From contig CBDBQC010000002.1 in assembly GCA_965209205.1 (NCBI GenBank), forward strand, positions 193,753-257,752: a stretch of DNA of 64,000 bases, written 5' to 3'. Below, piece after piece: positions 43,532-64,000 of this stretch (its first letter is position 1; every line of letters starts with the position of its first letter). The notes under the pieces were generated by a model. The model ran no database searches. It was not told the DNA's origin and saw only the letters and a list, made by a program, of their open reading frames with translations. Source of the DNA: Dehalococcoidia bacterium (GTDB lineage Bacteria > Chloroflexota > Dehalococcoidia > Bin125). The translations under genes and the position numbers were made by a program.

Positions 43532-43605
43532 GCGCGCGACTCCCGCTCAGAAAGGCTGGACGGCGCCGCAGCGACGACAAGCCATGCCGGGTCCGGCGAA
43601 TGATA

Positions 43606-43634: not shown

Positions 43635-43659
43635 GTCATGCCCGGCCGCAGGGGGCGGT

Positions 43660-47487: not shown

Positions 47488-47615
47488 GCGTCACCCTCCG
47501 GCCGACCCGGGATCGTTGGCTGCTGGGCCGAATATCGCCACGCCCGGCCCGGATGTCAAGCGAACCACCGGCCCCGTACGCCACCGGGCCCGCGCATCAC
47601 CTTCCCTCTTGGGCC

Positions 47616-51560: not shown

Positions 51561-51760
51561 TGGGGGGAACCTCTCGTCTCTCGGGCGGGCCCGCGGACCA
51601 TACCAGCCGCGGGCGCCAGTGAGCGGCCGTTGCTTGACCCTCGTCCGGCCCGACGATAGACAAAGGCTCGCATCGAGTCCCTTCGCCGAGTGTCGGGCGG
51701 CGGCCGGCGGTGACGCCGACTCCGCCTCGCAGCCGGCCCTTGCAGAGGAGCAGCGAGCCC

Positions 51761-52912
51761 ATGCCCAAGATCGTCGCAGTCGAGCCGTTCGCCGTGAGTC
51801 TGGGGCGCGGCAACATGGTGATCGTGCGGATCCGTTGCGACGACGGGATGGAGGGCTACGGCGAGGGCACGCTGCCGCACAAGGCGCGGGCCATCATGGG
51901 AGCGGTGCAGGACTTCGCCGAATACCTCGTCGGCCAGGACGACAGCCAGATCGAGCGCCACTGGCAGGTGCTCTATCGCAACAGCTTCCAGCGCGGCGGC
52001 GTGATCCTCTCCACGGCGCTCAGCGCCATCGATCAGGCCCTCTGGGACATCGCCGGCAAGCGCCTCGATCGACCCATCTGGAGCCTCATGGGCGGCGCCG
52101 TCCGCGACCGCATCTGGCTCTACACTCACCCCGGCCGGCGGGCGAACGACCCGAATACGCTCGTCGAGAACTGCCTCGAGCGCGTGGCCGAGGGCTACAC
52201 CGCGATCAAGCTCGGCATCCCGGGGACGCCGGAGTTGGTCCGCGACCCCCGCAAGGCGGCGGAGACCCACGACAACATCGCCGGCGTGCGCGACGCCGTG
52301 GGCCCGGACATCGCCCTGATGGTGGACGCGCACGGCAAGTCGACGCCCACGGTCGCGCTGGAGATCGCGCACGCCATCGCCCCGCTGGACCTGCTCTTCT
52401 TTGAGGAGCCGGTGCCGCCCCGCAACGTCGAGGCGCTGCTGCAGGTCAGCCGCTCCTGCCCCATCCCCCTGGCGACGGGCGAGCGGATGTACAACCGTTG
52501 GGACTTCCGCACGACGATCGAGTCTCAGGCCGTGTCCATCCTGCAGCCCGACCTCGGCCACGCCGGCGGGATCTCGGAGACGCGCCGCATCGCCGCCGCC
52601 GCCGAGACCTACTTCATGCAGATCGCGCCGCACAATCCCCGCGGCCCCGGGGTGACCCTGGCCAGCCTGCACATCGGCGCTTGCACGCCCAACTTCCTCA
52701 TCCAGGAGAGTCTCATTCCGCCCGGGGGCCAGTCGGAAATCTGGGACGAGATGCTGGTCGAGCCGCTGAACATCGTCGATGGCTACGTCGACCTGCCGCG
52801 CGCGCCCGGCCTCGGCATCCGCTTCGACGAGTCGCTGGCCGAGCGCTTCCCCTTCCAGGGCGCCGATACCCAGCACCCGGTGCTCAAGGATGGGGGCGTT
52901 GGTGACTGGTGA
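51761..52912 (+). CDS. enolase superfamily enzyme (galactonate-dehydratase-like subgroup)
   Basis: ORF 51710..52912 trimmed to ATG 51761 (GAGGAG upstream). Contains AIDQALWDIAGK and MVDAHGK..FEEP..TGER..HNP. Confidence 0.88.
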   Translation: MPKIVAVEPFAVSLGRGNMVIVRIRCDDGMEGYGEGTLPHKARAIMGAVQDFAEYLVGQDDSQIERHWQVLYRNSFQRGGVILSTALSAIDQALWDIAGKRLDRPIWSLMGGAVRDRIWLYTHPGRRANDPNTLVENCLERVAEGYTAIKLGIPGTPELVRDPRKAAETHDNIAGVRDAVGPDIALMVDAHGKSTPTVALEIAHAIAPLDLLFFEEPVPPRNVEALLQVSRSCPIPLATGERMYNRWDFRTTIESQAVSILQPDLGHAGGISETRRIAAAAETYFMQIAPHNPRGPGVTLASLHIGACTPNFLIQESLIPPGGQSEIWDEMLVEPLNIVDGYVDLPRAPGLGIRFDESLAERFPFQGADTQHPVLKDGGVGDW

Positions 52913-53651
52913 CGGCCCGCCCGGCCCCGAGACGCGGCTCATGGTCTTCGGCGCGCACGCCGCCGACTGGTGCTTCCGCGCCGGCGGTACCGCGACCCGC
53001 TACCTCCAGGCCGGCGCGCAGGTGAAGGTCGTTTGCGCGACCTTCGGGGAGCGCGGCGAGTCGGCCCCCCAGTGGCAGAACCCCGAGGCCACCGTCGAGT
53101 CGGTCAAGGCGATCCGCCGCGCCGAGTCGCAGCGCGCGGCCGACATCCTCGGCGTCGACATCGAGTTCCTCGACCTCGACGACAACCCGCTCGTGATCGA
53201 CGCGGAGCGCATGCAGCTCTACGTAGACCGCATCCGCGACTTCCGCCCCGACATCATCCTCACGCACTGGAATTACGAGCCCACCAACCGCGACCACCAG
53301 ACGGTGAGCGAGACGGTCGTGCGGGCGACGAGCCTGGCGCGCGTGGCCGCCGTCCAGGCCCGCGAGGCGGGCCCGGGGCGCGCCCGCATCTTCCTCTTCG
53401 AACCCGACGTCATGGCGCAGCCCATCCTCGGCTTCGCCCCGGACACGTACATCGACATCACGCCGGTGTGGGACCTCAAGATCGAGGCGCTGGAGAGCTA
53501 CCGGCCCACCCAGCCGGGGCTGCTGGAGCGCTGGCCCGAGCGGGGCCAGTTGCGCGGCGTCGAGGCGCGGGCGATCGGCGGCATGCCCGGCTGCCAGTAC
53601 GCCGAGGCGTTCCGGCGCTTCCAGCCCTACGCGGGCGAGTACTTCGTCTAG
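52890..53651 (+). CDS. PIG-L / LmbE-family deacetylase
   Basis: ORF 52779..53651 trimmed to ATG 52890 (alternative GTG at 52902), overlapping the end of the enolase gene. Contains VFGAHAADW (a variant of AHPDD) and NRDHQTV. Confidence 0.8.
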   Translation: MGALVTGDGPPGPETRLMVFGAHAADWCFRAGGTATRYLQAGAQVKVVCATFGERGESAPQWQNPEATVESVKAIRRAESQRAADILGVDIEFLDLDDNPLVIDAERMQLYVDRIRDFRPDIILTHWNYEPTNRDHQTVSETVVRATSLARVAAVQAREAGPGRARIFLFEPDVMAQPILGFAPDTYIDITPVWDLKIEALESYRPTQPGLLERWPERGQLRGVEARAIGGMPGCQYAEAFRRFQPYAGEYFV

Positions 53652-53663: not shown

Positions 53664-54701
53664 TCAGCCCAGCCGCACGGCGTGCAAGGCGTACCAGCCG
53701 CGCCAGGTCGCACCCGGCGCCAGCACGGTGAGGCCCGGGTCGGGCCGGTCTGGGCCGGTCAGGTTGAAGGCGTTGGGGATGCAGGTGTGCGGCTCCAGCG
53801 ACGCCGTCGCGATGCCGGGCGGTGTGTAGAACACCATCGCCGGGAACTCCGGGCTGCATGTCACCACGGCCTCCACGCCGTTCGCCCGGTCGATCAGGCG
53901 GCCGGTCGCCCCCCGCTCCCCGCCGGGCGACCGGCGCAAGAACGTCGCGTTGCGGCTCACCCCCGCCTCGGAGCGACGGATGGGCGCGATGTCCGCCAAC
54001 GGCAGCGGCCGCCGCGGCCACTCGTCCTCCGCGACCGATGTCACCGTGGCGGGCGGCTCAAGGAAGTCCCACCAGCGCTCCGTCGCATCGATCTGGGCCT
54101 CGCAGGCGTCGGCCTCGCCGTGCGGTCCCAGCGGCGTGGGGAGGTAGGGGTGGAAGCCCAGGCCGAAGGGCATCGCCGCGTCGCCCGTGTTGACGATCGT
54201 CACGTCGCTGCGCAGTCGTCCCCCGCGCAGTGTGACCCGCAGCGACAGCCGGAACGGGAACGGCCACTCCGCCGGGCTGACGGCCTCCTCCCGCGTCGCG
54301 ATCTCGGTGGTCACCCACGCCCCCGTCTCGGGCGACGCGCCCATGTCGATGACGCGCCAGGCGCGGCGACGCGCCAGCCCGTGCATGGCGTTCTTGGTGG
54401 CCGGGTCGGGTGGCAAATCGACGCGCCGGCCGCGGAACTCGAAGCCGTCGCCGCCCACGCGGCCGGGATACGGGAAGAGCACTCCCGCCCCGTAGCGGGT
54501 CGGCAGCGCCCGCAGCGTCGCGAGGTCCGGCGGTGATCCGATCACGTCGATCGGCCGCCCGCCGAGCGTCGTGCGGAAGCGGGTGATGTTGCTGCCCAGG
54601 CCGGGCACGACTTCGGCCCGGGAGCCGGTGGCGGGCTCTCGCAGCACCACGATCGGTTCCCCCTCCCACTTGCCGAAGCCGGCGGCCGGGGGCTGGGTCA
54701 C
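53664..54701 (-). CDS. aldose 1-epimerase (galactose mutarotase-like) family protein
   Basis: ORF 53664..54767. The start is uncertain: GTG 54701 avoids a 50-nt overlap with the upstream gene, and GTG 54767 is the alternative. Contains YPGRV..F.F.G and GFHPY. Confidence 0.75.
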   Translation of the reverse strand: MTQPPAAGFGKWEGEPIVVLREPATGSRAEVVPGLGSNITRFRTTLGGRPIDVIGSPPDLATLRALPTRYGAGVLFPYPGRVGGDGFEFRGRRVDLPPDPATKNAMHGLARRRAWRVIDMGASPETGAWVTTEIATREEAVSPAEWPFPFRLSLRVTLRGGRLRSDVTIVNTGDAAMPFGLGFHPYLPTPLGPHGEADACEAQIDATERWWDFLEPPATVTSVAEDEWPRRPLPLADIAPIRRSEAGVSRNATFLRRSPGGERGATGRLIDRANGVEAVVTCSPEFPAMVFYTPPGIATASLEPHTCIPNAFNLTGPDRPDPGLTVLAPGATWRGWYALHAVRLG

Positions 54702-54717
54702 GTCGGGGGAATCCGCG

Positions 54718-55569
54718 TCAGGGGACAAGGCCGCGCCAGCTGTATTGCGGCCGGTAGCCCAGAACACGCTTCGCCTTCGCGCAGGTGATCGGCCCCTGCG
54801 TGCCGGTGAGCTGCGCGCAGACGGCCTCGCTGCCGGGGAAGCGGCGCGGGAACGCGGTGCTCAACGGCTCGCGGCAGAGCGCGTCGTCGGCCGTAATGAA
54901 GAAGCGGTCGTGCTCGATCGTCTCGTCGGCGAGCGCCAGCCGCACCGCCTGCGCGTAGTCCCGCGCGTCCACGTAGGCGAAGATGCCGTGGCCGCCGGGC
55001 CGGTCGAGCGCGGCGGGGACGCGCTCGGCGTAGTCGTCCGGCTGCAGGACGCTCGTGGGACGCAGGGAGATCGTGCGGATGCCCGTCCGGCGCGTGGCGG
55101 CGGCCAGGATCTCCTCGCCCAGCCACTTCGAGAGCCCATAGGCGTCCTGGGGGAGCAGCGGGTGCTCCTCGTCCATCGGCATGTAGGCCGGCGCCATGTC
55201 GCGGAAGCGGAAGGCGAAGCCCAACGCCGATCCGCTGCCGCTGTAGATCACCTTCCCCGCGCCGGCCCGCATCGCCGCCTCCACGACGTTGAACGTGCTC
55301 AGCATGTTGTTGGCGAAGACCTGCTCTGGCGGGTGGTTGAGGGGAGAGGGAATGGCGGCGAGGTGCACGACGGCGTCGACGCCGGCCGCCGCGCTCGCGA
55401 CCGCATCGGGATCGGTCAGGTCGACCTGCAGGTAGCGAGGCCCCCCGTCGTCGCCGGCCGCCGGGCCGGCGGCGACGTCGGCCACGACGATCTCGTGGTC
55501 GCCCTTCAGCTCCTCGACGACCCAGCGGCCGAGGCGCCCGTTGCCGCCGGTGATCAGCAGACGCGTCAT
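54718..55569 (-). CDS. NAD-dependent epimerase/dehydratase (extended SDR)
   Basis: ORF 54718..55569. Contains ITGGNGRLG and a YGLSK catalytic Tyr-x3-Lys. Confidence 0.85.
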   Translation of the reverse strand: MTRLLITGGNGRLGRWVVEELKGDHEIVVADVAAGPAAGDDGGPRYLQVDLTDPDAVASAAAGVDAVVHLAAIPSPLNHPPEQVFANNMLSTFNVVEAAMRAGAGKVIYSGSGSALGFAFRFRDMAPAYMPMDEEHPLLPQDAYGLSKWLGEEILAAATRRTGIRTISLRPTSVLQPDDYAERVPAALDRPGGHGIFAYVDARDYAQAVRLALADETIEHDRFFITADDALCREPLSTAFPRRFPGSEAVCAQLTGTQGPITCAKAKRVLGYRPQYSWRGLVP

Positions 55570-55603: not shown

Positions 55604-56623
55604 TCAGTCGAAGTGGAAGCAGATCTTGCCGCTGGCCGCGTCGTCGGCCAACTGGAAGCCGCGCGCGCCCTCCTCGATGCCGAGGTCGTGGCTCACGACC
55701 GCGCCCAGATCGATCGACTTGCGTTGCACGAAGTCGCAGAGTTCGTCCCACATGGTCTGCGGGTAGATGGTTGAGCCGAAGAGGTGGATGTCCCAGCGGG
55801 TGATCCCGTTGAGCGAGGTCTGGAACGTATCGTTGCCCAGCCCCACCAGCGCCGCGGTCCCCCGCGGCCGCACGATGGCCGGGATCGCCTCGTGCGCGGG
55901 GGTCGCGCCGGAGGCCTCGACCAGCTTGTCGGCCCCACGCGGCCAGATCGCCTGCAGCGCCGGCCCCACGTCCCCGGCCGTCGGGTCGATCGTGGCTTCC
56001 GCGCCCAGCGATTCGGCCAGCGTCCGGCGCTCCGCGACGGGGTCGATGCCCACGACCTCCGCCCCCATCGCGCGCGCGAATTGCGTGGCCAGCAGCCCCA
56101 CCGGGCCCAGGCCCGAGACGGCCACGCGGTCCCGCCCGCCGGCGCCCAGCCGCACGAGGGGCGCGTAGGCGGTGCCACCCTGGCAGGCCAGGATGGCGCC
56201 TTCGCGGGCGCTGAGGCCGTCGGGCAGGCGCATGCTGGCGCTGGCGTCGGCGGTCATCAGCTCGGCGTCGGAGCCGTGCGCGCCGAAGCCGTAGCCGGGG
56301 CGGATGTTGGCGCAGACCTGGTTGTTGCCGCTGCGGCAGTCGTCGCACTGCCAGCATGTGCGCCGGAAGTAGACGACGGCGCGGTCGCCGGGCGCCCAGC
56401 CCTCGACGCCCTCCCCCACCGCAACGACGTCGCCGCTGCCCTCGTGGCCGGGTGTGATCGCGCGGTCGATGTAGGGCTGCGGCGCGCGGCGGTAGAGGTG
56501 CAGGTCGCTGCCGCAGATCGCGGAGGCCCGCAGGCGGATCAGCAGTTCGCCGGGGCCGGGCTCGGGTTCCGGCTTGTTCTGGACCGCGATGGTCCGTTCG
56601 CCGGTCAGGCTCAGTGCGCGCAC
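55604..56623 (-). CDS. zinc-dependent alcohol/polyol dehydrogenase (sorbitol/threonine dehydrogenase-like MDR)
   Basis: ORF 55604..56734 trimmed to GTG 56623 (GGAG upstream). Contains ICGSDLH, GHEGSG, CWQCDDCRSG and GLGPVG. Confidence 0.85.
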   Translation of the reverse strand: MRALSLTGERTIAVQNKPEPEPGPGELLIRLRASAICGSDLHLYRRAPQPYIDRAITPGHEGSGDVVAVGEGVEGWAPGDRAVVYFRRTCWQCDDCRSGNNQVCANIRPGYGFGAHGSDAELMTADASASMRLPDGLSAREGAILACQGGTAYAPLVRLGAGGRDRVAVSGLGPVGLLATQFARAMGAEVVGIDPVAERRTLAESLGAEATIDPTAGDVGPALQAIWPRGADKLVEASGATPAHEAIPAIVRPRGTAALVGLGNDTFQTSLNGITRWDIHLFGSTIYPQTMWDELCDFVQRKSIDLGAVVSHDLGIEEGARGFQLADDAASGKICFHFD

Positions 56624-56693
56624 GTTGACTCCGTTCCGCAGTTCTGGAAGGTGGCGAGAGGGGTGCGGCCTCGCCCGGAGGCCGGTCGCCAGC

Positions 56694-57647
56694 CTAGGCG
56701 ACCCGGATGCGCGGGTCGACGAAACCGTAGGCAATGTCGATCACGATGTTCGCCAGGATGAAGGAGAGGGCGTAGAGGAAGACGAGGCTCTGGATCAGCG
56801 TCCAATCCGACGACTGGATGCCCTGCACCAGCGAGAGACCCAGCCCCGGCACCGAGAAGGCGCGCTCGACGGCGACCGCGCCGCCGATCAGCCCGCCCAG
56901 CGCCAGCCCGGAGATCGTCAGCACGGGCAGCAGGGCGTTGCGCAGTACGTGCCCGACGAGCACGTTGCGACTGTTGATCCCCTTGGCCTGGGCCGTGCGC
57001 ACGAAGTCGCTGCTCAGCACGTCGAGCACGGAGGAGCGCGTGATCCGGGCGAAGACCGCCCCCAGCCCGACGCCCATTACGAACGCCGGCCCCAGGGTCA
57101 TCTGCAGGTTCTCGAGCGGGTCCGTCCAGACATGCACATAGACCAGCGGCGGCCGCCAGCCCAAGACGAGCACCGTGAAGAGGATGATCAGCAGGCCCAT
57201 CCAGAAGCCGGGCACGGCGAGCAGGAAGACCGCGGCGAAGCGCGACATGTAGTCGCTGGGTTGGTTCTGGCGCACGGCCCCGAAGATGCCCAGCGGGATG
57301 CCGATGAGCCAGGCCAGGAGGATGGCCATGATCGCGATCTGGGCGCTCACCGGGCCCCGGTGGCTGACGATCTCCGTCACCGGCGTGTCGGCGATGAACG
57401 AGGAACCGAGGTCGCCGGTGAGGATGTCGCCCACCCACTCGAAGTACTGCTCCGTCAGCGGCCGGTCGATGCCCATCTGCTCGCGAAGCCGGTCGCGCTG
57501 CTCCTCGGTGAAGACGTAGCCTCCGGCGTCGTCCTGGATGGCCGTGGGGTCGCCCGGGATGATGCGGATGGCGATGAAGATCAGGATCGAGATCCCGAGC
57601 AGGACGGGCAACCCAAGCAGCAGGCGGCGAACGACGTACTTCAGCAT
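56694..57647 (-). CDS. ABC transporter permease, Opp/Dpp/Nik B-type
   Basis: ORF 56694..57647 (MLKYVVRRLLLGLPVLLGISILIF...). Contains RTAQAKGI. Confidence 0.9.
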   Translation of the reverse strand: MLKYVVRRLLLGLPVLLGISILIFIAIRIIPGDPTAIQDDAGGYVFTEEQRDRLREQMGIDRPLTEQYFEWVGDILTGDLGSSFIADTPVTEIVSHRGPVSAQIAIMAILLAWLIGIPLGIFGAVRQNQPSDYMSRFAAVFLLAVPGFWMGLLIILFTVLVLGWRPPLVYVHVWTDPLENLQMTLGPAFVMGVGLGAVFARITRSSVLDVLSSDFVRTAQAKGINSRNVLVGHVLRNALLPVLTISGLALGGLIGGAVAVERAFSVPGLGLSLVQGIQSSDWTLIQSLVFLYALSFILANIVIDIAYGFVDPRIRVA

Positions 57648-57833
57648 GATGCGGCCGTCAGCGTAGCGCCTCCCGGCGAAGTGGTGGCGGGCATCCGGCC
57701 GCCGGGCTCAGTCCCGCGCTGCTGGGCGGGACGCGGGCTGGGGAACAAAGCGCAGCAGCCGGGCGACGGAAGCTCCATGCGCGTGGAGCCGCCGCCGCCC
57801 GGCTGCCCGGGGTCGCGTTCGCGACGGACCTGT

Positions 57834-60044
57834 CTAGGCGTTCACCCAGAACAGATCCCAGGTGCCTTCCTCGGTGTAGCCGCGGGTTTCCTCCAGGTGG
57901 CCCTGCAGCCGGTTGGACCACATGGCGTTGTGCTGCGTGAAGGCGACCAGGTAGAAGGGCGGATCCTCGTCCAGCAGGTCCATGCCCTGCGCGTAGAGGT
58001 CCTTCTTCGTCTCGAAGTCCGCCTCGGCGTCGATCCGGTCGATGATGTCGTCGACCTCCGGGTTCGAGTAGAACTCGAAGTTGTTCGAGCCGCCGGTGCG
58101 GATGCACGACTTCCAGGCGGTGACGAACTCACTCACCGGCGCGCGGAAGATGACGCCCAGCAGGAAGTCGTACGTGCCCTCCTGGTAGGCCTCCGTGCGG
58201 CCGGAGCCGGCCCGCGGATCGAGCACCGTGTCGATGTTGAGTTTCTCCTTGAGCTCGGCCTGGAAGGCCGGGGCCAGGATCTCGGAGTGCGCGGGGTTGG
58301 TGTTGCTGACGATCTGCCCACCGTCGAAGCCGTCGCTCAGCCCCACGGCGTCGAGCAACTGCTTCGCCTCGGCGATCGCCTCGGGGTCCTCGCCGCGGTA
58401 GCCCGGGATCTGCTCGAGGTCCGCCAGCGGCGTGGCGACGGGGCTGGAGTTCGACACCCAGCGGGAGCCCGCGAGGCTCATCGACTCGGTGTACACGTCG
58501 ATCAGGCCGGGCCGGTTCGGGGCCAGGAAGATCGCGCGCCGCACGCGGGGGTCGTTGAACGGCTCCTTCTCGTTGTGCATGTAGAACTGCAGCGAGGCGC
58601 GGGTGCCGTCGTGCCGGGCGACGCCGGCGACGTCGGCGAACTGGTCCCGCGTGTCGTAGAACTCGGCCGGCACGATGTTGGCGTAGTCGGCCTGCCCGCC
58701 CAGGATGGCGGTGGCGCGGTCCGGCCACGGCACCACGTGCAGCATCTCCAACTCGTCGATGTAGGGCAGCGACGGGTTCCAGTAGTCCGGGTTGCGGGTA
58801 AAGCGGGTCAGCTCCTCGGCCCGGTGCTCCTGGAACAGGTAGGGGCCGGTGCCCGGCAGCGGCTCGGCCGCGATGTTGCTCGTGTCCTGCAGGTGGGCCT
58901 CGGAGTAGATCGCCTTCTCGGGCCCCGCCAGCATCTCAAGGAAGTAGGCGCGCGGCGCGCTCAGCTTGACGACGACGGTCTGGTCGTCGACCGCGTCCGC
59001 GCTCTCCATGTAGTCGAGGTCGGTCGCGTAGCGGCTGGTGTAGTCGCTGAACTCGCCCAGGTTGCGCATGCGCCGCAGCGAGGCGGCGAGGTCGCCCGCG
59101 ACGAACGGCGTCCCGTCGTGGAAGGTCACGCCCGGGCGGATGGGCAGCGTGTAGGTAAGGCCGCCGTCCGAGATCTCCCAGCCCGCGGCCAGCCGCGGCA
59201 TGATCGTCTGCAGGCCGTCCAGCGGGTTCGCGCGCACGGCCGTCTCGTACATCTGCGAGAGAATGCCGCGGTTCCCGGACACGTGCTGGTCGAAGTTCGC
59301 GATGCGCCCCCAGAAGACGGTCCGCACCTTCCCGCCCATCTGCGTGTCGGGCAGGCCGATGATGCCCTCCTCGGGGTTGACCTCGGGACCCATCGCCTCC
59401 TCGTCCGCCATCTCATCCGCGTCCATGGCGGCGTCGGCGGCCTCGCGGGCCGCGGCGGCGGCCTCCTCGGCGGCGGCGACGGCGGCCTCGGCCGTCTCGG
59501 CGGCGGCGGCCGACGCCTCCCCGGCGGCGGCAGCGGCGGCAGCCGCGGCATCGGCCGCGGCCTGCGCGGCGGCAGCCGCGGCGGCGGTATCCTCGGCGCC
59601 CGCCTCCCGCGCGGCGGTGGCGGCGGCCTCGGCGGCATCGGCGGCCGCCTGCGCGACCGCAGCGGCGCCCGCATCGCCCGCGGCTTCGGCCGCAGCGGCG
59701 GCATCGGCGGCGGCGTCGGCGGCCGCCTGGGCGGCCGCAGCGGCCTGTTCGGCGTCATCGGATGCCGCGGCTTCGGCCGCCAGGGCGGAGGCCGACTCGG
59801 CGGCTTCGGCAGCGCGGCCCGCGGCCTCGGCGGCGTCGCTCGCGGCGGCGGCCGCGGCAGCCGCGTCGCTCGCGGCCGCGTCGACGGCGGACGAGTCGAC
59901 GACCGCCGGCGCGGCGTCGTCGTCACCGCCGCAGCCGACCAAGGCCAAGCCCGCCGCGCCCACGCCCGCCTTGGCGCTGGCACGCAGCAGCGCACGGCGG
60001 CTCAGGCGCGTGCGTCGCAATCCGTCCCAAGAACTGATGCTCAT
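57834..60044 (-). CDS. ABC solute-binding lipoprotein, family 5, with ~180-aa Ala/Asp/Glu tether
   Basis: ORF 57834..60155 trimmed to ATG 60044 (AAGGAGG upstream). Contains RTRLSRRALL...LALVGCGGDDD, a linker at about 59391-59930, then a family-5 core. Confidence 0.9.
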   Translation of the reverse strand: MSISSWDGLRRTRLSRRALLRASAKAGVGAAGLALVGCGGDDDAAPAVVDSSAVDAAASDAAAAAAAASDAAEAAGRAAEAAESASALAAEAAASDDAEQAAAAAQAAADAAADAAAAAEAAGDAGAAAVAQAAADAAEAAATAAREAGAEDTAAAAAAAQAAADAAAAAAAAAGEASAAAAETAEAAVAAAEEAAAAAREAADAAMDADEMADEEAMGPEVNPEEGIIGLPDTQMGGKVRTVFWGRIANFDQHVSGNRGILSQMYETAVRANPLDGLQTIMPRLAAGWEISDGGLTYTLPIRPGVTFHDGTPFVAGDLAASLRRMRNLGEFSDYTSRYATDLDYMESADAVDDQTVVVKLSAPRAYFLEMLAGPEKAIYSEAHLQDTSNIAAEPLPGTGPYLFQEHRAEELTRFTRNPDYWNPSLPYIDELEMLHVVPWPDRATAILGGQADYANIVPAEFYDTRDQFADVAGVARHDGTRASLQFYMHNEKEPFNDPRVRRAIFLAPNRPGLIDVYTESMSLAGSRWVSNSSPVATPLADLEQIPGYRGEDPEAIAEAKQLLDAVGLSDGFDGGQIVSNTNPAHSEILAPAFQAELKEKLNIDTVLDPRAGSGRTEAYQEGTYDFLLGVIFRAPVSEFVTAWKSCIRTGGSNNFEFYSNPEVDDIIDRIDAEADFETKKDLYAQGMDLLDEDPPFYLVAFTQHNAMWSNRLQGHLEETRGYTEEGTWDLFWVNA

Positions 60045-60221
60045 TCCGAAAACCTCCTTATTGGGGCATCTCACCGCCGATTTCCGAGCGGTACAGACCC
60101 AGCCCCGTACTTCACCGGGCGACGGTATCCCCGGATTCCACTCCGTAACAGCCATCCGCTTGACACTGGCGCCGGCCGTGTCGCGCCGCCCGAGCCCGCC
60201 GCCGCCGGCAGCGCGACGGCG

Positions 60222-61406
60222 CTACGCCCCGACCAGCGCGCGCGTCTCGATCTTCGACTCGTCCAGCTCCATGCCCAGGCCGGGCGTGTCCGGCAGCCGC
60301 AGGCTGCCGCGGTCGCGGACGACGGGGTCGCGCAGGAAGAACTCGTGGACCTGGTTCCACTTGATCAGGTCCTCGGCCATCGGGCAGAGGTTCGGCGGCT
60401 GCGACGCGATCAGGTGCGTGTTGGCGGAGACCGAGTGCCCGTGCGGGATGACGGGCAGCTCCGCGACGGAGGCCAGCGTGCAGATCTTGCGCATCTCGCT
60501 GATCCCGCCGGCCCAGTACGTGTCGGCCTGGATCACGTCGCAGGCGGCGGCGTCGATCAGCAGTTGGATGCCCCAGCGCGTGTACTCGTGCTCGCCGGTC
60601 GCGATGGGGACGGGGGAGCGGCGGCGGATCGCGGCCGTGGCGGCGATCTTGTCGGGCAGCAGCGGCTCCTCGATCCAGCGCACGTTGTAGCGTTCCACCC
60701 GGCGCGCCATCGTCAGCGCGTAGTCGGGGTCCCAGCTCATCCAGGCGTCGAACATGATGTCGGTGTCGTCCCCGGCGGCCTCGCGCACCGTGCGCACGAG
60801 CGTCTCGTTCTGCTCCATGCCCGCCTTGCCGTCGGCGGGGCCGCGCTTGAAGAACCACTTCTGCGCCCGGTATCCGGCCGCGGCGAACGCGGCCGCCCGG
60901 CGGGCGACGTCGGCCGGCTCGACGGAGAAGCCCAGCGTGCTGGCGTAGGCCGGGATCGACGCTCGCGTGGGGCCGCCCAGCAGCCGGTAGACCGGCTGGT
61001 CGAGCGCCTTGCCCTTCAGATCCCAGAGTGCGCAGTCGATCGCGCTGATCGCCATCATCGTCGCGCCTTTGCGGCCGTGCACGGCCGATCGGTGCATCAG
61101 ATCCCAAATGCGTTCCGTCGCGCGCGCGTCCTCCCCCGTCAGCAGCGGCTTGAACTGCTGCAGGATCGACTGCGCCAGCGCCCCCCCAATGGGCCCCGCC
61201 CGTCCCACGACGCCCTCCGCCTCGATCTCCAGGAAGACCCCGTCAATGCGGTAGCGGCCGTCGCCCCGTTGGGGCAGCGTGCGCGGTCCCCCCTGGCGGT
61301 GCGGCTCGTAGAGGTCGGTGGGGCGGACCAGCCGGTCCTCCCAGAACTCGCCCTCGTGCTCCAGCGTGCCGCTGACCTGGACCGCCCGGATCGCGTCAAT
61401 GTTCAT
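60222..61406 (-). CDS. enolase superfamily dehydratase (rhamnonate-dehydratase-like, tentative subgroup)
   Basis: ORF 60222..61406. Contains AIDCALWDLKGK and MFDAWMSW..IEEP..TGEHE..PHGHS. Confidence 0.85.
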   Translation of the reverse strand: MNIDAIRAVQVSGTLEHEGEFWEDRLVRPTDLYEPHRQGGPRTLPQRGDGRYRIDGVFLEIEAEGVVGRAGPIGGALAQSILQQFKPLLTGEDARATERIWDLMHRSAVHGRKGATMMAISAIDCALWDLKGKALDQPVYRLLGGPTRASIPAYASTLGFSVEPADVARRAAAFAAAGYRAQKWFFKRGPADGKAGMEQNETLVRTVREAAGDDTDIMFDAWMSWDPDYALTMARRVERYNVRWIEEPLLPDKIAATAAIRRRSPVPIATGEHEYTRWGIQLLIDAAACDVIQADTYWAGGISEMRKICTLASVAELPVIPHGHSVSANTHLIASQPPNLCPMAEDLIKWNQVHEFFLRDPVVRDRGSLRLPDTPGLGMELDESKIETRALVGA

Positions 61407-61427
61407 GGCGGCATCTTCACTGCGCCG

Positions 61428-62675
61428 TCACCCGCCCGCGCCCGCCGCGATCTGCAGCGTGGCGCAGGGGAAGACCGCGACGCGGGCGTGGTCGCCGTGC
61501 TTGTCGGACAGCCAGCGCCCCACGTCGGCCCAGTCGGTCATTAGCGTGACACGCTCCCGGGGGCCCGGCGGCAGGCCGAGCTTGGCCATGCCGGGCATGA
61601 AGTAGACCAGGTCGGGCGCGCCCGGCATCGGGCGGCCCGCGCCGGCCCCGTACATCGGCATGCCGGGGCCGTACAGCGAGTGGAAGCCGGGCCCCTCGAC
61701 GGTCGAGCCGGCCAGCACGATCGTCCCCCCCGGCCGCACGATCGGCTCGGGTGCGGTGAGCAGCGGGTGGAAGCCGCGGCCGGTCTGCTGGTACTCGGCG
61801 TCTTTGGGGTAGCTGGCCAGCACGCACACGTCGACGCCGCGGGGGACCGGCGTCGCGTAGACCCGCCGCGCCATCGCGACGCCTGCCCGGTGCGCCTCGA
61901 CGAGGTCGCCCACGACGAGCCCCGCGATCCCCCGCGTGGCATTGGGGATCACGTTAACAATGCAGTCCACGCCGGCCAGCCGCGCCGCCTCCTCGGAGTC
62001 GAGGCGCGACTCGCTTGCCGTCGCGATCAGGCCGGTCGGGGGCCCGTCGGGTCCGTGCCAGGCGTGCGCGGTGTCGATGTGCGCCACGCCCGGCAGCACC
62101 AGCTTCGAGCCGCCCGAGAAGCCGGTCTTGTTGTGCGGCATGATGCTGCCGACGAGGATGCGGCACTCGGCGGCGAGGAACTCGGAGTTCAGGCGCACCG
62201 GCGTGCCGCGGCTCGTTGTACCGACCGGGTCGCAGTTCGTCCAGGAGAAGTGCGAGCGCGTGCGGTAGGTGTCGACGACGTCTGCACCCACCTTCTTGAT
62301 GAAGTCGTCCCGCGTCAGTACGCGGTGGTTGGCGACCCCGGCCAGGATCAGGGTGTCGGACGGGGTCAGGCCCGCCGCGTGCAACTCCCGCAGGATGCGC
62401 GGCAGCAGCCGCGACGCCGGCGTCGGCCGCGTCAGGTCGTCCACGACCACGACGGCGCTGCGTTTGCCCGCCGCCAGCTCCCGGATCGGCGCGCAGCCGA
62501 TCGGGTTGTCGAAGGCGGCGGCGATCCCATCCTCGCCGATGTCGTCGCCGCCGGCGTGCTCGTGCACCGTCACGTCCCAGGCCGCCGGGAAGCGCAACGC
62601 CAGGTCGCGGTCGCCGTAGAAGGAGGCCCAGCGGATCGCGGCGGTCTGCGTGGGAGGTGGGGACGCGGTGGTCAT
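61428..62675 (-). CDS. LarA-like protein (DUF2088; nickel-pincer-cofactor-dependent 2-hydroxyacid racemase/epimerase family)
   Basis: ORF 61428..62675. Contains FDNPIG..PIRELA, VVVVDDLTRPTP, AGVANHR and GSIMPHNKTGFSGGSKLVLPG. ATGA overlap with the upstream permease. Confidence 0.8.
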   Translation of the reverse strand: MTTASPPPTQTAAIRWASFYGDRDLALRFPAAWDVTVHEHAGGDDIGEDGIAAAFDNPIGCAPIRELAAGKRSAVVVVDDLTRPTPASRLLPRILRELHAAGLTPSDTLILAGVANHRVLTRDDFIKKVGADVVDTYRTRSHFSWTNCDPVGTTSRGTPVRLNSEFLAAECRILVGSIMPHNKTGFSGGSKLVLPGVAHIDTAHAWHGPDGPPTGLIATASESRLDSEEAARLAGVDCIVNVIPNATRGIAGLVVGDLVEAHRAGVAMARRVYATPVPRGVDVCVLASYPKDAEYQQTGRGFHPLLTAPEPIVRPGGTIVLAGSTVEGPGFHSLYGPGMPMYGAGAGRPMPGAPDLVYFMPGMAKLGLPPGPRERVTLMTDWADVGRWLSDKHGDHARVAVFPCATLQIAAGAGG

Positions 62676-63592
62676 TTGACCTTCCGGCGCTCGGCGGACC
62701 GCGGGTCGGCGAAGTCACGGATCGCGTCGCCCAGCAGGTTCATCGCTAGCACTGTGATCACGATCGCCAGGCCCGGGAAGACCACCAGCCACCACGCGGG
62801 GTTGAAGATGTGACTCACGATGGCTCCCAGCATGCCCCCCCACGTCGCGGTGGGGGGCGGCACGCCCACGCCCAGGAAGGAGAGCGCCGCCTCGGCGAAG
62901 ACGGCGAAGCCGAAGTTGATCGAGATGATGACCAGGAACAGCCCCAGCGTCTGCGGCGCGACGTGACGCCATGTCACGCGGAGCCAGGGCGCGCCGATCG
63001 AGCGTGCTGCCTCGACGTACGGTTCCTGCTTGATCGAGAGCACGCTCGACCGCACCACGCGGCCGGAGTCGGGGATGCGGGTGACGGCGATTGCGATGAT
63101 GATCGTGCTCACGCCGCCGCCGATCGCCACCAGCAGCAGGAGCGCGAGGATCAGCGCCGGGAAGGCCAGCAGCACCTCTAGCACACGCTGCATGATCAGG
63201 TCGTACCAGCCGCCCGCGTAGGCGCTGACGATGCCGACGATGAAGCCCAGGCCGTCGCCGATGAGGACCGAGAACACCGCCACGACCAACGTCACGCGCC
63301 CGCCGTAGAGCACGCGCGTGAAGACGTCCCGCCCCAGGTCGTCGGTGCCGAACCAGTGCGCGCCCGAGGGGCCGACGCGGATCGCGCTGAAATCGATCTC
63401 GAGCGGGTCGAAGCGCGCGATCGCCGGCGCGAGCGCGGAGGCGGCGACGAGCGCCGCCAGCACGGCCAGCGCCACCACGCCGACCGGGTAGTAGCGCACG
63501 AACAGGCGCACCTGCGACGCGAGCGTGCGATCGGGTCGCTTGAGCGGTACGGCGAGCTGGCTCGCGCCCTCGTCCGCCATTCGCCCGGACAT
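62672..63592 (-). CDS. ABC transporter permease, Opp/Dpp/Nik C-type
   Basis: ORF 62672..63592. The ATG directly follows the TAG of the aldolase gene. Confidence 0.9.
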   Translation of the reverse strand: MSGRMADEGASQLAVPLKRPDRTLASQVRLFVRYYPVGVVALAVLAALVAASALAPAIARFDPLEIDFSAIRVGPSGAHWFGTDDLGRDVFTRVLYGGRVTLVVAVFSVLIGDGLGFIVGIVSAYAGGWYDLIMQRVLEVLLAFPALILALLLLVAIGGGVSTIIIAIAVTRIPDSGRVVRSSVLSIKQEPYVEAARSIGAPWLRVTWRHVAPQTLGLFLVIISINFGFAVFAEAALSFLGVGVPPPTATWGGMLGAIVSHIFNPAWWLVVFPGLAIVITVLAMNLLGDAIRDFADPRSAERRKVK

Positions 63593-64000
63593 CTAGGTCC
63601 CCACGACCGACCGCACCTGCTCGCGGGCCAGGGCGATGTCATCACTGGCCGCCCGGATCAGGCCGCGGAAGTCGATGCTGACGGTGATCATCTGGAAGCC
63701 GGCGCTGGCGTGCTTCGCGGCGAGCGTGGCGTCGGCGTGGATGCCGGCGACGACGCCGTGCGCCTTGCACGCCCGCGCGACCGCCTGGCGCGCCTCTTCG
63801 AACGCGCCCCCGTTGTCGAGGCCCGGCGGCAGGCCCAGCGTGATCGACAGGTCGGCCGGACCGATGTAGACCGCGTCGACGCCTTCGACGCCCAGGATCT
63901 CGTCGAGGTTTTCCACGGCCTCCTTCGTCTCGACCATGGGGATGCAGGCGATCTCGTCGTTGGCGCGCGCGCCGTAGTCGGCGCCCGCGCTGACCGAGAT
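63593..64000 (-). CDS. HpcH/HpaI-family aldolase (2-keto-3-deoxy-sugar-acid aldolase type); 5' end outside window
   Basis: ORF 63593..63937 extends open to the window edge (..NDEIACIPMVETKEAVENLDEILGVEGVDAVYIGPADLSITLG..). This is the characteristic ET...GxD..fIGp.DLs pattern. Confidence 0.8.
   Translation of the reverse strand: MSVSAGADYGARANDEIACIPMVETKEAVENLDEILGVEGVDAVYIGPADLSITLGLPPGLDNGGAFEEARQAVARACKAHGVVAGIHADATLAAKHASAGFQMITVSIDFRGLIRAASDDIALAREQVRSVVGT

What the first reader, a model, noticed from the sequence alone, without database searches (positions are those of the whole stretch)
55604..64000. LarA-like nickel-pincer enzyme embedded in a sugar-acid catabolic cluster and interleaved with a Nik/Dpp-type importer
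Gene order on the minus strand is:
- HpcH-type aldolase
- C-type permease
- LarA-like protein
- rhamnonate-dehydratase-like enolase
- family-5 SBP
- B-type permease
- Zn polyol dehydrogenase
- NAD epimerase
- aldose 1-epimerase

Dehydrogenase plus enolase-type dehydratase plus HpcH aldolase is the logic of non-phosphorylative sugar-acid pathways. A LarA homologue in the middle suggests a C2 epimerisation of a 2-hydroxy (sugar) acid. It carries D..TRPTP, G..HR and PH...GFSGG.K motifs, the last of which I recall as the Lys tether region for the nickel-pincer cofactor. LarA homologues are known to include non-lactate racemases and epimerases such as a gluconate 2-epimerase.

Two oddities stand out.
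- The transporter genes are split by enzyme genes. The C permease is ATGA-coupled to larA-like, and the TAG stop of the aldolase abuts its ATG.
- No larB, larC or larE cofactor-synthesis genes are in the window.

Because PepT-family importers include NikABCDE, the transporter could import either the substrate or nickel for the cofactor.
Basis: partly seen in the sequence, partly recalled or inferred. Interest (0 to 1): 0.65.

Follow-up and report, generated by a model that had tools for sequence, protein, structure and literature searches.

The report
Nickel-pincer epimerase in sugar-acid operon
A sponge-associated Dehalococcoidia bacterium carries a conserved operon in which an uncharacterised relative of nickel-dependent lactate racemase sits beside a sugar-acid dehydratase, an aldolase and an importer; it most likely flips one stereocentre of a sugar acid so the dehydratase can use it, which is a new candidate substrate class for a known enzyme family rather than a new kind of system.

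Summary
Nine minus-strand genes (53664 to beyond 64000) encode the predicted families in the stated order, and both junction details are exact.

The LarA-like protein has a full LarA fold (pLDDT 93.5, TM 0.81 to LarA of Isosphaera pallida). It keeps every catalytic and cofactor-binding residue, but reaches the cut-off of no characterised LarAH family in NCBIfam.

The core permease C–LarA–enolase is syntenic in at least 13 Dehalococcoidia/Chloroflexota MAGs. In one relative (71% identity) larB, larC and larE directly follow the enolase. An aldolase–LarA–enolase trio also recurs in Ca. Fervidibacter, with an unrelated aldolase.

Best reading: an NPN-dependent C2-epimerase of a polyhydroxy (aldonic or aldaric) acid that feeds a rhamnonate-dehydratase-like enzyme. 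This is inferred, not shown.

The nickel-import idea is not supported. The window holds three such ATPase-less Dpp-type sets, and the binding protein is far from NikA.

Whether larBCE exist in the source genome could not be tested.

Verdict: a new member of a known kind, of moderate interest.

The parts
63593..64000 (-). HpcH/HpaI-family class II pyruvate aldolase. Only the C-terminal 135 aa are in the window; the gene runs off the window end and is the first gene of the operon.
   Evidence: Pfam PF03328, E 1e-15. The full-length orthologue in L001 (258 aa) is 38% identical to E. coli 2-keto-3-deoxy-L-rhamnonate aldolase. It is below every NCBIfam equivalog cut-off (HpaI 176 bits vs 369, GarL 150 vs 407, RhmA 145 vs 441). 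Upstream in the relatives is a divergent threonine synthase gene, which marks the operon start.
62672..63592 (-). DppC/OppC-type ABC permease. Its start abuts the aldolase TAG, and its TGA overlaps the larA-like ATG (ATGA).
   Evidence: Pfam PF00528; NCBIfam Opp4C/GsiD/NikC-like, none at cut-off; junction sequences. A permease-C gene overlapping the larA-like start (4 nt where the genes are intact: L001/L002 and L003/L004; 1 nt in L086, whose larA-like gene is called truncated) is seen in clades A, B and C.
61428..62675 (-). LarA-family (nickel-pincer nucleotide dependent) 2-hydroxyacid racemase/epimerase homologue, 415 aa.
   Evidence: Pfam Lar_N, E 1e-43. PDB by sequence: 9EID/9EIA (LarA of Isosphaera pallida) E 3e-52, Mar2 7e-44, LarA of L. 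plantarum 2e-30. AF2 pLDDT 93.5; Foldseek TM 0.81 to 9EID and 0.80-0.81 to L. plantarum LarA structures 6C1W/8EZF/8EZH (0.73-0.78 to 5HUQ). D80, R83, H117, H181, K191, H207 and Q297 are invariant in 46 family members. No NCBIfam LarAH equivalog is reached (best is LarAH6, 224 bits vs 500).
60222..61406 (-). Enolase-superfamily acid-sugar dehydratase of the L-rhamnonate-dehydratase-like subgroup, 394 aa.
   Evidence: Pfam MR_MLE_N/C. NCBIfam best hit is L-rhamnonate dehydratase, 213 bits vs cut-off 393. It is 30% identical to E. coli RhmD. The DxW, IEE, GEH, QxD and PHG motifs align; from my recollection of RhamD these hold the metal ligands and the His base. Best solved relatives are uncharacterised RhamD-like structural-genomics targets.
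57834..60044 (-). Family-5 (Dpp/Opp/Nik-type) solute-binding lipoprotein. It has a Tat-like leader, a lipobox (LVGC), an Ala/Asp/Glu-rich linker of about 200 aa, then the binding domain.
   Evidence: Pfam SBP_bac_5, E 3e-65, on ORF residues 318-668. NCBIfam GsiB 114 bits, NikA 87 (cut-off 393). PDB best hits: YliB/GsiB, AgaA, HbpA, DppE; E. coli NikA only 1e-13. Leader and linker; tandem GCN repeats.
56694..57647 (-). DppB/OppB-type ABC permease.
   Evidence: Pfam PF00528 + PF19300; no NCBIfam equivalog reached.
55604..56623 (-). Zn-dependent medium-chain dehydrogenase (about 339 aa; the ORF extends to 56734).
   Evidence: Pfam ADH_N + ADH_zinc_N. PDB best hits are Zn alcohol dehydrogenases and L-threonine 3-dehydrogenases. 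The orthologue is called as 340 aa in L086.
54718..55569 (-). Extended-SDR (PF01370) protein, 283 aa; possibly a sugar/uronate 1-dehydrogenase rather than an epimerase.
   Evidence: Pfam Epimerase, E 2e-27. Closest solved structures: SDR 4ID9 (1e-17) and uronate dehydrogenase 3RFT (7e-16). NCBIfam best hit is Azf-type glucose-6-P dehydrogenase, 59 bits.
53664..54767 (-). Aldose 1-epimerase (mutarotase) family protein, last gene of the operon. The true start is probably a little downstream of 54767.
   Evidence: Pfam PF01263, E 6e-32; PDB 4BZF aldose 1-epimerase, 3e-15; the orthologue is 357 aa in L086.
51710..53651 (+). Convergent neighbour pair, syntenic in all clades: a galactonate-dehydratase-like enolase (51710-52912) and a PIG-L/LmbE-family deacetylase (about 52932-53651). 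Whether it belongs to the same pathway is uncertain.
   Evidence: NCBIfam PRK14017 galactonate dehydratase, 344 bits, above the cut-off of 311. Pfam PIG-L. Synteny in L003, L007, L009-L012, L014-L016 and L018.

Best explanation
This is one catabolic operon of a sponge-associated, SAR202-like Dehalococcoidia bacterium for the non-phosphorylative breakdown of an imported sugar or sugar acid.

Proposed steps:
1. A Dpp-type importer takes up the substrate. Its binding lipoprotein, permease B and permease C are encoded here; its ATPases are encoded elsewhere.
2. A mutarotase and one of the two dehydrogenases (the uronate-dehydrogenase-like SDR and/or the Zn-dehydrogenase) oxidise an aldose or uronate to the corresponding aldonic or aldaric acid.
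3. The LarA homologue, loaded with the nickel-pincer nucleotide cofactor, inverts the C2 hydroxyl of that 2-hydroxy acid by proton-coupled hydride transfer.
4. The rhamnonate-dehydratase-like enolase dehydrates the correct C2 epimer to a 2-keto-3-deoxy acid.
5. The HpcH aldolase cleaves this to pyruvate and an aldehyde.

Dehydration destroys the C2 and C3 stereocentres, so the epimerase lets one dehydratase/aldolase pair consume two epimeric acids.

Shown:
- the gene families
- the intact NPN and catalytic site
- the conserved gene order and coupling
- the physical linkage to larBCE in a relative

Inferred:
- the reaction
- the substrate class
- the order of the steps
For: 1. LarA identity.
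- Lar_N E 1e-43; E 3e-52 to LarA of I. pallida.
- Full-length fold match at TM 0.81 with pLDDT 93.5.
- The equivalents of L. plantarum D72, R75, H108, H174, K184, H200 and Q295 are invariant across 46 family members.

2. Cofactor.
- In L003/L004/L017 (71% identical LarA) the order is aldolase, permease C, LarA, enolase, LarB (AIRC), LarC (Ni_insertion), then LarE (PP-loop).

3. Coupling to the dehydratase.
- Permease C-LarA-enolase is invariant in three clades covering at least 13 MAGs.
- The 4-nt ATGA overlap is in the window and in the called genes of L001/L002 and L003/L004.
- Ca. Fervidibacter loci show RraA-like aldolase-LarA homologue-enolase, with a non-homologous aldolase.

4. Dehydratase and aldolase logic.
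- The enolase is 30% identical to E. coli RhmD, with the motifs I recall as its metal ligands and His base aligned.
- The aldolase is 38% identical to E. coli KDR aldolase.
- In E. coli these two enzymes are encoded together in the rhm cluster.

5. Pocket signature.
- The orthologous clade has Asn-Lys after the second catalytic His, where lactate racemases have Phe-Phe.
- It keeps a cationic Arg at the Lys298 position.
- Paralogues at about 50% identity have Gly/Ala-Ala and Thr at these positions (specificity positions from PMC11770544 and PMC11851776).

6. Precedent.
- NPN-dependent D-gluconate 2-epimerases exist (PMC7583248, PMC11770544).

7. Organismal context.
- SAR202 genomes carry many parallel enolase / dehydrogenase / HpcH-aldolase sets for non-phosphorylative sugar and sugar-acid catabolism (PMC10444878, PMC6946804).
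- The window itself has 4 MR_MLE genes.
Against: - No activity data exist, and the substrate is unknown.
- The protein is not in the characterised gluconate-epimerase groups: the LarAH14/15/16 model gives 33 bits against a cut-off of 740, and the first two signature positions are N,K rather than E,V.
- Its nearest characterised relatives are small-acid racemases (malate racemase LarAH6, broad-spectrum LarA of I. pallida).
- The C-terminal specificity helix (W358/T359 of L. plantarum LarA) cannot be aligned, because the family is shortened there.
- No lactonase gene is in the operon.
- In clade B the aldolase is replaced by a D-2-hydroxyacid dehydrogenase. That swap fits a small-acid racemase role about as well.
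- larBCE could not be located in the source genome or in the clade A/B genomes.
Confidence: 0.55

Rival explanations
1. The LarA homologue is a racemase for a small end-product 2-hydroxy acid of the pathway (lactate, glycerate, tartrate or malate) rather than for the sugar acid itself. For example, it would convert the L-form made from the aldolase's aldehyde product into the D-form, which a D-specific 2-hydroxyacid dehydrogenase then oxidises.
For: - The closest characterised relatives are short-chain/broad-spectrum LarA of I. pallida and the malate racemases.
- In nine clade-B genomes the operon's first gene is a PGDH/glyoxylate-reductase-like D-2-hydroxyacid dehydrogenase.
- A cationic pocket (Lys183, Arg300) would also suit a dicarboxylate such as malate or tartrate. 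Malate racemases use a Lys for the second carboxylate (PMC11770544).
Against: - The invariant partner across all clades and in Fervidibacter is the enolase-type dehydratase, not a 2-hydroxyacid dehydrogenase.
- The NCBIfam scores are less than half the malate-racemase cut-offs (224 vs 500, 179 vs 462).
- Tyr294 of LarA of I. pallida, which binds the 2-OH of small D-acids, is Gln here (PMC11851776).
Confidence: 0.2
2. The interleaved Dpp/Nik-type transporter imports nickel (or a nickel-metallophore complex) to supply the pincer cofactor, rather than the carbon substrate.
For: - Family-5 binding proteins and these permease families include NikABC.
- The permeases give partial hits to NikB/NikC and Opp1/Opp2 nickel permease models.
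- Permease C is translationally coupled to the Ni enzyme.
Against: - The binding protein scores 87 bits on the NikA model (cut-off 393). It scores higher on GsiB. Its best solved relatives are GsiB/YliB, AgaA (opine), HbpA and DppE.
- The permease hits to peptide, glutathione and nickel models are all similar and all below cut-off.
- The same 64 kb holds two more SBP/permease sets of this type, with the same leader peptide. One lies directly beside another enolase gene and neither is near a Ni enzyme.
- In L003, where larBCE are present, the binding-protein and permease-B genes are not in the cluster.
Confidence: 0.05
3. The protein uses the nickel-pincer cofactor for a hydride-transfer reaction other than C2 inversion, for example another isomerisation or redox step on the pathway intermediate. 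Alternatively, it has lost the cofactor altogether.
For: - The C-terminal substrate-recognition region is shortened and not alignable to characterised LarAs.
- The Lys298 equivalent is not conserved in the wider 50%-identity family.
- The LarA literature allows for other hydride-mediated reactions in atypical homologues (PMC7583248). A separate, structurally unrelated nickel-pincer enzyme family catalyses intermolecular hydride shuttling (PMC13524815 abstract).
Against: - Both catalytic histidines, the Lys tether, the Ni-binding His and the carboxylate-binding Arg/Gln are all invariant. This is the full set used for racemisation/epimerisation.
- larBCE are adjacent in a relative.
Confidence: 0.1

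Closest known systems
D-gluconate 2-epimerases of the LarA superfamily (GntE1/GntE2, LarAH15; PMC7583248, PMC11770544)
   Same: An NPN-dependent LarA-fold enzyme placed in a sugar-acid catabolic context. The predicted reaction is inversion of C2 of a polyhydroxy acid so that it can enter a dehydratase-based route.
   Different: - A different branch of the superfamily: the NCBIfam LarAH14/15/16 model gives 33 bits against a cut-off of 740.
- About 415 aa rather than about 500-520.
- The first two signature positions are N,K, not E,V.
- The partner dehydratase is an enolase-superfamily RhamD-like enzyme.
- The substrate is unknown.
Malate racemase Mar2/LarAH6 and broad-spectrum LarA of Isosphaera pallida (PDB 6D6Z, 9EID)
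   Same: These are the closest characterised sequences and structures (E 7e-44 and 3e-52; TM 0.81 to 9EID). They share the catalytic His pair, the Lys tether and the Ni-binding His.
   Different: - Only 26-28% identity in the structural alignments.
- Below the family cut-offs (224 vs 500).
- Tyr294 is Gln and Lys298 is Arg.
- Phe/Phe (lactate racemases) or variable residues after His174 are Asn-Lys here.
- The C-terminal specificity helices are not alignable.
- The genomic context is sugar-acid, not malate or lactate.
E. coli rhmRDTA (yfaXWVU) L-rhamnonate cluster
   Same: A RhamD-type enolase dehydratase plus an HpcH-family 2-keto-3-deoxy-acid aldolase plus a dedicated transporter. The L003 relative also has an IclR-type regulator nearby.
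   Different: - 30% (dehydratase) and 38% (aldolase) identity only, below the equivalog cut-offs.
- An ABC importer instead of the single putative transporter gene yfaV.
- Added LarA epimerase, mutarotase and two dehydrogenases.
SAR202 parallel non-phosphorylative sugar / sugar-acid pathways (PMC10444878, PMC6946804)
   Same: The same lineage type (Dehalococcoidia). The same paralogue families in the window: COG4948 enolases, HpcH aldolases, Zn- and SDR-dehydrogenases, luciferase-like monooxygenases and PhyH dioxygenases.
   Different: Word searches of both papers for LarA, 'lactate racemase' and nickel found nothing. Stereochemical flexibility was attributed there to enolase-superfamily members only.
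NikABCDE nickel importer
   Same: The same ABC sub-family (family-5 binding protein, DppB/C-like permeases).
   Different: - The NikA model is not reached.
- No ATPase genes.
- Three paralogous sets in 64 kb.
- The closest binders recognise glutathione, opines or peptides.

Membership tests
LarA superfamily (NPN-dependent 2-hydroxyacid racemases/epimerases) | Lar_N domain and the two-domain LarA fold | tested here: met
   PF09861, 149 bits. AF2 pLDDT 93.5. Foldseek TM 0.81 to 9EID and 0.80-0.81 to 6C1W/8EZF/8EZH (0.73-0.78 to 5HUQ), over the full length.
LarA superfamily (NPN-dependent 2-hydroxyacid racemases/epimerases) | Two catalytic histidines (His108 and His174 of L. plantarum LarA) | tested here: met
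   His117 and His181 align to them and are invariant in 46 relatives.
LarA superfamily (NPN-dependent 2-hydroxyacid racemases/epimerases) | Cofactor site: Lys184 tether, His200 Ni ligand, Asp72/Arg75 | tested here: met
   Lys191 (in GFSGGSK), His207 (K+16), and Asp80/Arg83 in DDLTRPTP. All are invariant.
LarA superfamily (NPN-dependent 2-hydroxyacid racemases/epimerases) | Carboxylate-binding Gln295 and Lys298 | tested here: inconclusive
   Gln297 is invariant. The Lys298 position is Arg300 in the orthologous clade but Thr/Ala/Leu in paralogues at about 50% identity.
LarA superfamily (NPN-dependent 2-hydroxyacid racemases/epimerases) | larB, larC and larE present in the same genome | not testable with these tools
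   Absent from the 64 kb window and from the ±10 kb flanks of the clade A/B loci. Adjacent in clade C. LarB-LarC pairs occur in other Dehalococcoidia MAGs, but none could be traced to the same assemblies.
LarA superfamily (NPN-dependent 2-hydroxyacid racemases/epimerases) | Ni/NPN-dependent inversion at C2 of a 2-hydroxy acid | not testable with these tools
   This needs biochemistry.
D-gluconate 2-epimerase groups (GntE; LarAH14/15/16, 19, 20) | Family HMM score, and the E-V / A-H signature at positions 175, 176, 358 and 359 | tested here: not met
   NF052592 gives 33 bits against a cut-off of 740. Positions 175/176 are Asn-Lys. Positions 358/359 are not alignable.
Malate racemases (LarAH5 / LarAH6) | NCBIfam equivalog cut-off | tested here: not met
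   NF052593 gives 224 bits vs 500. NF052595 gives 179 vs 462.
L-rhamnonate dehydratase (enolase superfamily, RhamD) | Equivalog score; the three metal-ligand acidic residues and the His base (roles recalled from the RhamD literature, not looked up here) | tested here: inconclusive
   The aligned DxW, IEE, GEH, QxD and PHG motifs are conserved against E. coli RhmD at 30% identity. But NF011968 gives 213 bits against a cut-off of 393. It is therefore a member of the subgroup, not a demonstrable rhamnonate dehydratase.
NikABCDE nickel importer | A NikA-type binding protein with its own NikD/E ATPases | tested here: not met
   TIGR02294 gives 87 bits against a cut-off of 393. E. coli NikA ranks far below GsiB and AgaA. 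No ABC ATPase is in the window or in the syntenic loci.
HpcH/HpaI class II aldolases | PF03328 domain; equivalog to HpaI, GarL or RhmA | tested here: inconclusive
   The Pfam domain is met. The equivalog cut-offs are not met: 176 vs 369, 150 vs 407 and 145 vs 441. It is 38% identical to RhmA.

The most novel reading that the evidence does not exclude
The clade defines a new substrate class for nickel-pincer enzymes: an aldonate or aldarate 2-epimerase outside the known gluconate-epimerase branch. It would be hard-wired to an enolase-type dehydratase and a pyruvate aldolase as a three-enzyme module that arose at least twice, in Dehalococcoidia and in Ca. Fervidibacter. In SAR202-like bacteria it would be a dedicated stereochemistry-erasing step. 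That would give direct enzymatic substance to the proposal that these organisms specialise in chirally complex dissolved organic matter. It would also add a nickel requirement to that metabolism.
Probability: 0.4. Interest if true: 0.6.

Novelty: new member of a known kind. Interest (0 to 1): 0.45.

Why it matters
Only a handful of LarA-superfamily reactions are characterised. The published surveys assign functions to about half of the family, and sugar-acid substrates are represented only by gluconate/mannonate.

This clade offers an unusually well-defined candidate:
- an intact active site
- a conserved operon that names its likely neighbours in the pathway
- a relative that carries the cofactor genes in the same cluster

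Confirming the reaction would add a new NPN-dependent epimerisation. It would also help to annotate the very large sets of enolase/aldolase paralogues in SAR202-type and sponge-associated Dehalococcoidia, and it would link their sugar-acid catabolism to nickel availability.

It does not change any concept. The logic (epimerase feeding a dehydratase) is that of GntE.

Tried and rejected
1. Look-up of the window's own LarA protein in the assembly index found nothing on record, so the source genome could not be inspected.

2. I tried to show larBCE in the same genomes as the clade A/B loci.
- Two LarC searches were run.
- Three context look-ups were run (P0188, P0172, P0197).
- They found LarB-LarC pairs in other Dehalococcoidia/Chloroflexi MAGs.
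- None came from the assemblies or contig lengths of L006-L018, so the result is inconclusive. It is not evidence of absence.

3. Mapping the W358/T359 specificity positions failed. The profile alignment to 5HUQ is unreliable there, because the family is shorter in that region. The tools do not expose model coordinates.

4. Promoter and terminator scans gave nothing above shuffled expectation. The scan is not designed for this phylum.

5. Threonine synthase, the divergent upstream neighbour in the relatives, was first considered a possible PLP ammonia-lyase of an amino-sugar route. It was rejected because it passes the thrC equivalog cut-off (566 bits vs 303).

6. A sulfoquinovose or specific rhamnose/fucose assignment was considered. 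It was not adopted, because no family-level evidence discriminates among substrates.

7. The 1656-aa plus-strand ORF 56574-61544 and other long antisense ORFs are read as artefacts of the 71% G+C content: none of them passed the GC3/GC2 coding filter that every minus-strand operon gene passes.

8. The RNA-run search returned only runs of unknown type held as contigs, so it gave no transcription evidence.

Full report
**Observation**

The window is about 71% G+C, so long spurious ORFs abound on both strands. I selected ORFs by codon-position G+C (GC3 above 0.8, GC2 below 0.62).

| Coordinates | Gene |
|---|---|
| 63593 to beyond 64000 | HpcH/HpaI aldolase (partial) |
| 62672-63592 | OppC/DppC-type permease |
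| 61428-62675 | Lar_N protein of 415 aa |
| 60222-61406 | MR_MLE enolase-superfamily protein |
| 57834-60155 | family-5 solute-binding protein |
| 56694-57647 | DppB-type permease |
| 55604-56734 | Zn-dependent dehydrogenase |
| 54718-55569 | PF01370 SDR |
| 53664-54767 | aldose 1-epimerase |

- The last two genes lie below the stated start coordinate of 55604.
- The junctions are as described. The permease-C TGA overlaps the larA-like ATG (AAATGACC). The aldolase TAG is followed directly by the permease ATG.
- tblastn with LarB, LarC and LarE from a related locus finds nothing in the 64 kb. The 'no larBCE in the window' remark is therefore also correct.

**The LarA-like protein**

- By sequence its closest solved relatives are the broad-spectrum LarA of Isosphaera pallida (9EID/9EIA, E 3e-52), malate racemase Mar2 (7e-44) and L. 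plantarum LarA (2e-30).
- An AlphaFold2 model built on a 46-sequence family alignment is confident (pLDDT 93.5, pTM 0.92).
- The model superposes over its full length on 9EID (TM 0.81) and on L. plantarum LarA structures (TM 0.80-0.81 to 6C1W/8EZF/8EZH; 0.73-0.78 to 5HUQ).
- The alignments map the functional residues as follows.

| Role | L. plantarum LarA | This protein |
|---|---|---|
| cofactor / carboxylate site | Asp72, Arg75 | Asp80, Arg83 (DDLTRPTP) |
| catalytic His | His108 | His117 (NHR) |
| catalytic His | His174 | His181 (PH) |
| Lys tether | Lys184 | Lys191 (GFSGGSK) |
| Ni ligand | His200 | His207 |
| carboxylate binding | Gln295 | Gln297 |

- All of these are invariant in the 46 relatives.
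- NCBIfam now has models for several characterised LarAH groups, and the protein reaches none of them. The scores are LarAH6 malate racemase 224 bits (cut-off 500), LarAH5 179 (462), LarA 165 (460), LarAH10 144 (540) and LarAH14/15/16 33 (740).
- It is thus a bona fide LarA-superfamily member of an uncharacterised subgroup.

**Specificity hints**

Published work names the positions after the second catalytic His (F175/F176 of L. plantarum LarA), W358/T359, and Y294/K298 (I. pallida numbering) as substrate determinants (PMC11770544; PMC11851776).

| Position | Window protein and relatives at 58-93% identity | Paralogues at about 50% identity |
|---|---|---|
| after second catalytic His | PH-N-K-TGFSGG | PH-G-A-A-GFSGG |
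| Y294 to K298 region | YQQTGRG (Tyr294 to Gln, Lys298 to Arg) | FLQYLTA |

- The orthologous clade therefore has a distinctly polar, cationic pocket entrance. That fits a polyhydroxy and possibly doubly anionic acid.
- The W358/T359 helix cannot be aligned, because the family is shorter there.

**Relatives and synteny**

Protein search found a 93%-identical homologue in a sponge Chloroflexota MAG and a family of several hundred relatives. A scan of GTDB species genomes with the family alignment returned 80 loci. I annotated these by tblastn with the window's proteins and with precomputed Pfam. Three clades share the cluster.

| Clade | LarA identity | Loci | Gene order |
|---|---|---|---|
| A | 93-94% | L001/2/6, L007, L008 | threonine synthase (divergent) / aldolase-permC-LarA-enolase-SBP-permB-ZnADH-SDR-mutarotase / PIG-L and second enolase (convergent); the full order is seen in L007, while L001/2/6 and L008 end at or inside the enolase gene |
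| B | 74-77% | nine Dehalococcoidia MAGs, several closed chromosomes | the same, except that the first gene is a PGDH-like D-2-hydroxyacid dehydrogenase instead of the aldolase |
| C | 71% | L003/4/17, stromatolite MAG | aldolase-permC-LarA-enolase-LarB-LarC-(IS fragments)-LarE |

- Clade A has the same order as the window.
- The invariant core is permease C-LarA-enolase.
- Relatives at 58% identity or less (Acidimicrobiales, Myxococcota, Actinomycetota) lack this context.
- Independently, Ca. Fervidibacter loci have GFO oxidoreductase ... RraA-like aldolase-LarA homologue (45-47% identity)-MR_MLE enolase-AMP ligase: directly adjacent in L053 and L060, with a roughly 3-kb gap before the enolase in L058. 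This is the same aldolase/LarA/enolase trio with a non-homologous aldolase.
- The larBCE adjacency in clade C ties the clade to the nickel-pincer cofactor.

**The other enzymes**

- The enolase is best matched by L-rhamnonate dehydratase (213 bits, cut-off 393).
- It is 30% identical to E. coli RhmD. The DxW, IEE, GEH, QxD and PHG motifs align; from my recollection of RhamD these hold the acidic metal ligands and the His base.
- Its best solved relatives are uncharacterised RhamD-like structural-genomics proteins.
- The aldolase orthologue is 38% identical to E. coli 2-keto-3-deoxy-L-rhamnonate aldolase. It is below all equivalog cut-offs.
- Among solved structures, uronate dehydrogenases (3RFT, 3RFX) rank second to the SDR, after an uncharacterised SDR (4ID9).
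- The Zn-dehydrogenase resembles generic alcohol / threonine dehydrogenases. 'Epimerase' and 'polyol dehydrogenase' are therefore family labels only.
- A mutarotase implies that a free reducing sugar is handled.
- No lactonase is in the operon.

**The transporter**

- The binding protein has a Tat-like leader and a lipobox, followed by an Ala/Asp/Glu-rich linker of about 200 aa.
- Its domain scores highest on GsiB (114 bits) and lower on NikA (87 bits, cut-off 393).
- Its best solved relatives are YliB/GsiB, the agropinic-acid binder AgaA, HbpA and DppE. E. coli NikA is at 1e-13.
- The window contains two more sets of the same kind. These are SBP-permB-permC at 9.5-13.9 kb, and SBP-SBP-permB-permC at 41.6-47.5 kb next to another enolase.
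- All the binding proteins share an almost identical leader.
- No ABC ATPase gene exists anywhere in the window or in the syntenic loci.
- This pattern reads as a family of substrate importers that share ATPases encoded elsewhere. It does not read as a nickel system.
- The odd gene order (C ... A-B), with the permease-C gene overlapping the larA-like start (by the 4-nt ATGA wherever both genes are intact), is conserved across the clades. It is therefore old and stable.

**Organism and literature context**

- The closest loci are sponge-derived Dehalococcoidia MAGs.
- Several of the runs that hold the sequence are labelled sponge metagenomes; the organism names of the other runs are coded.
- The window is rich in families expanded in SAR202:

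| Family | Genes in the window |
|---|---|
| MR_MLE enolases | four |
| luciferase-like monooxygenases | two |
| PhyH dioxygenases | two |
| family III CoA-transferases | two |
| Zn-dehydrogenases | several |

- Published work on SAR202 describes parallel non-phosphorylative sugar / sugar-acid pathways built from these paralogues. It also puts forward a 'chiral complexity' hypothesis (PMC10444878, PMC6946804).
- Word searches of both papers for LarA, lactate racemase and nickel found nothing.
- A full-text search combining lactate racemase, sponge, Chloroflexi and dehydratase found nothing.

**Interpretation**

- The most economical reading is an NPN-dependent C2-epimerase that supplies the RhamD-like dehydratase with the correct epimer of an aldonic or aldaric acid. 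That acid would be made from the imported sugar. Aldol cleavage follows.
- This is the logic already known for gluconate 2-epimerase, but in a different branch of the superfamily and with a different dehydratase.
- The main rival is a racemase for a small product acid. The nearest characterised relatives and the D-2-hydroxyacid dehydrogenase of clade B favour this rival. The invariant enolase partnership disfavours it.
- Nickel import by the transporter is unlikely.
- What remains untested is the reaction itself and the presence of larBCE in the source genome. Two LarC searches and three context look-ups found larB-larC pairs in other Dehalococcoidia but could not link them to the relevant assemblies.

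**Verdict**

The feature is real and was correctly observed. It is a new member (an uncharacterised subgroup) of a known enzyme family in a coherent, conserved operon. It is of moderate interest as a well-posed target for function discovery.

Noticed in passing
window 9532-13945, 41643-47490, 56694-63592 (all minus strand): There are three Dpp/Opp-type importer sets (binding protein(s) plus permeases B and C) within 64 kb. None has an ABC ATPase gene, and no ATPase gene occurs anywhere in the window or in the syntenic loci. This suggests shared, remotely encoded ATPases.
   Followed up: partly
window 57834-60044, 11531-13945, 43660-45570, 45682-47490 (minus strand): All four family-5 binding proteins share a near-identical Tat-like leader and lipobox (RR.ISRR..LGASAKAGVGAAGLALVGCG.DDD). 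This is followed by an Ala/Glu/Asp-rich low-complexity linker whose length varies from about 20 to about 270 aa. At the DNA level it is an imperfect GCN tandem repeat (59390-59901).
   Followed up: partly
window 51710-53651 (+): A convergent pair: a galactonate-dehydratase-like enolase (it passes the NCBIfam PRK14017 cut-off) and a PIG-L/LmbE-family deacetylase. The two ORFs overlap as called. The pair is syntenic next to the operon in every locus of the three clades whose contig extends that far. Its link to the pathway is unexplained; an N-acetylated substrate is one possibility.
   Followed up: partly
L009-L016, L018/L086 (positions about 8000-9000 of each locus): In nine Dehalococcoidia genomes the first operon gene is a PGDH/glyoxylate-reductase-like D-2-hydroxyacid dehydrogenase instead of the HpcH aldolase. 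The remaining eight genes are unchanged.
   Followed up: partly
L053 7316-14212; also L058, L060: Ca. Fervidibacter (Armatimonadota) loci carry GFO/IDH/MocA oxidoreductase, RraA-like aldolase, a LarA homologue (45-47% identity), an MR_MLE enolase and an AMP-dependent ligase. This is an independent aldolase/LarA/enolase module.
   Followed up: partly
L066-L085 (e.g. L078, L080-L084): Poribacteria loci hold two LarA homologues close together on the same strand, their starts 1.3-2.3 kb apart (35-40% identity to the window protein). Several also have an HpcH aldolase plus an enolase about 8 kb away.
   Followed up: no
window 37594-40722 (-) and 21987-23294 (-): There are long ORFs with a coding-type codon G+C profile (1042 aa and 435 aa, stop to stop) that match no Pfam family.
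   Followed up: no
window 56574-61544 (+): A 1656-aa open reading frame lies antisense to the operon. It did not pass the GC3/GC2 coding filter, and I read it as an artefact of the high G+C content, not a gene.
   Followed up: yes
L008 (CBDBMW010000002.1): This contig is labelled Vicinamibacterales (Acidobacteriota) but carries the start of this operon (aldolase, permease C, LarA and the enolase, up to the contig end) at 92-99% protein identity to Dehalococcoidia MAGs. It is probably mis-binned.
   Followed up: no
L003/L004 5246-7800 and 14671-15974: The larBCE-carrying relative has transposase/IS fragments (DDE_3, HTH_Tnp, IstB-like). They lie upstream of the aldolase gene and also between larC and larE. 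This suggests recent rearrangement of that locus.
   Followed up: no
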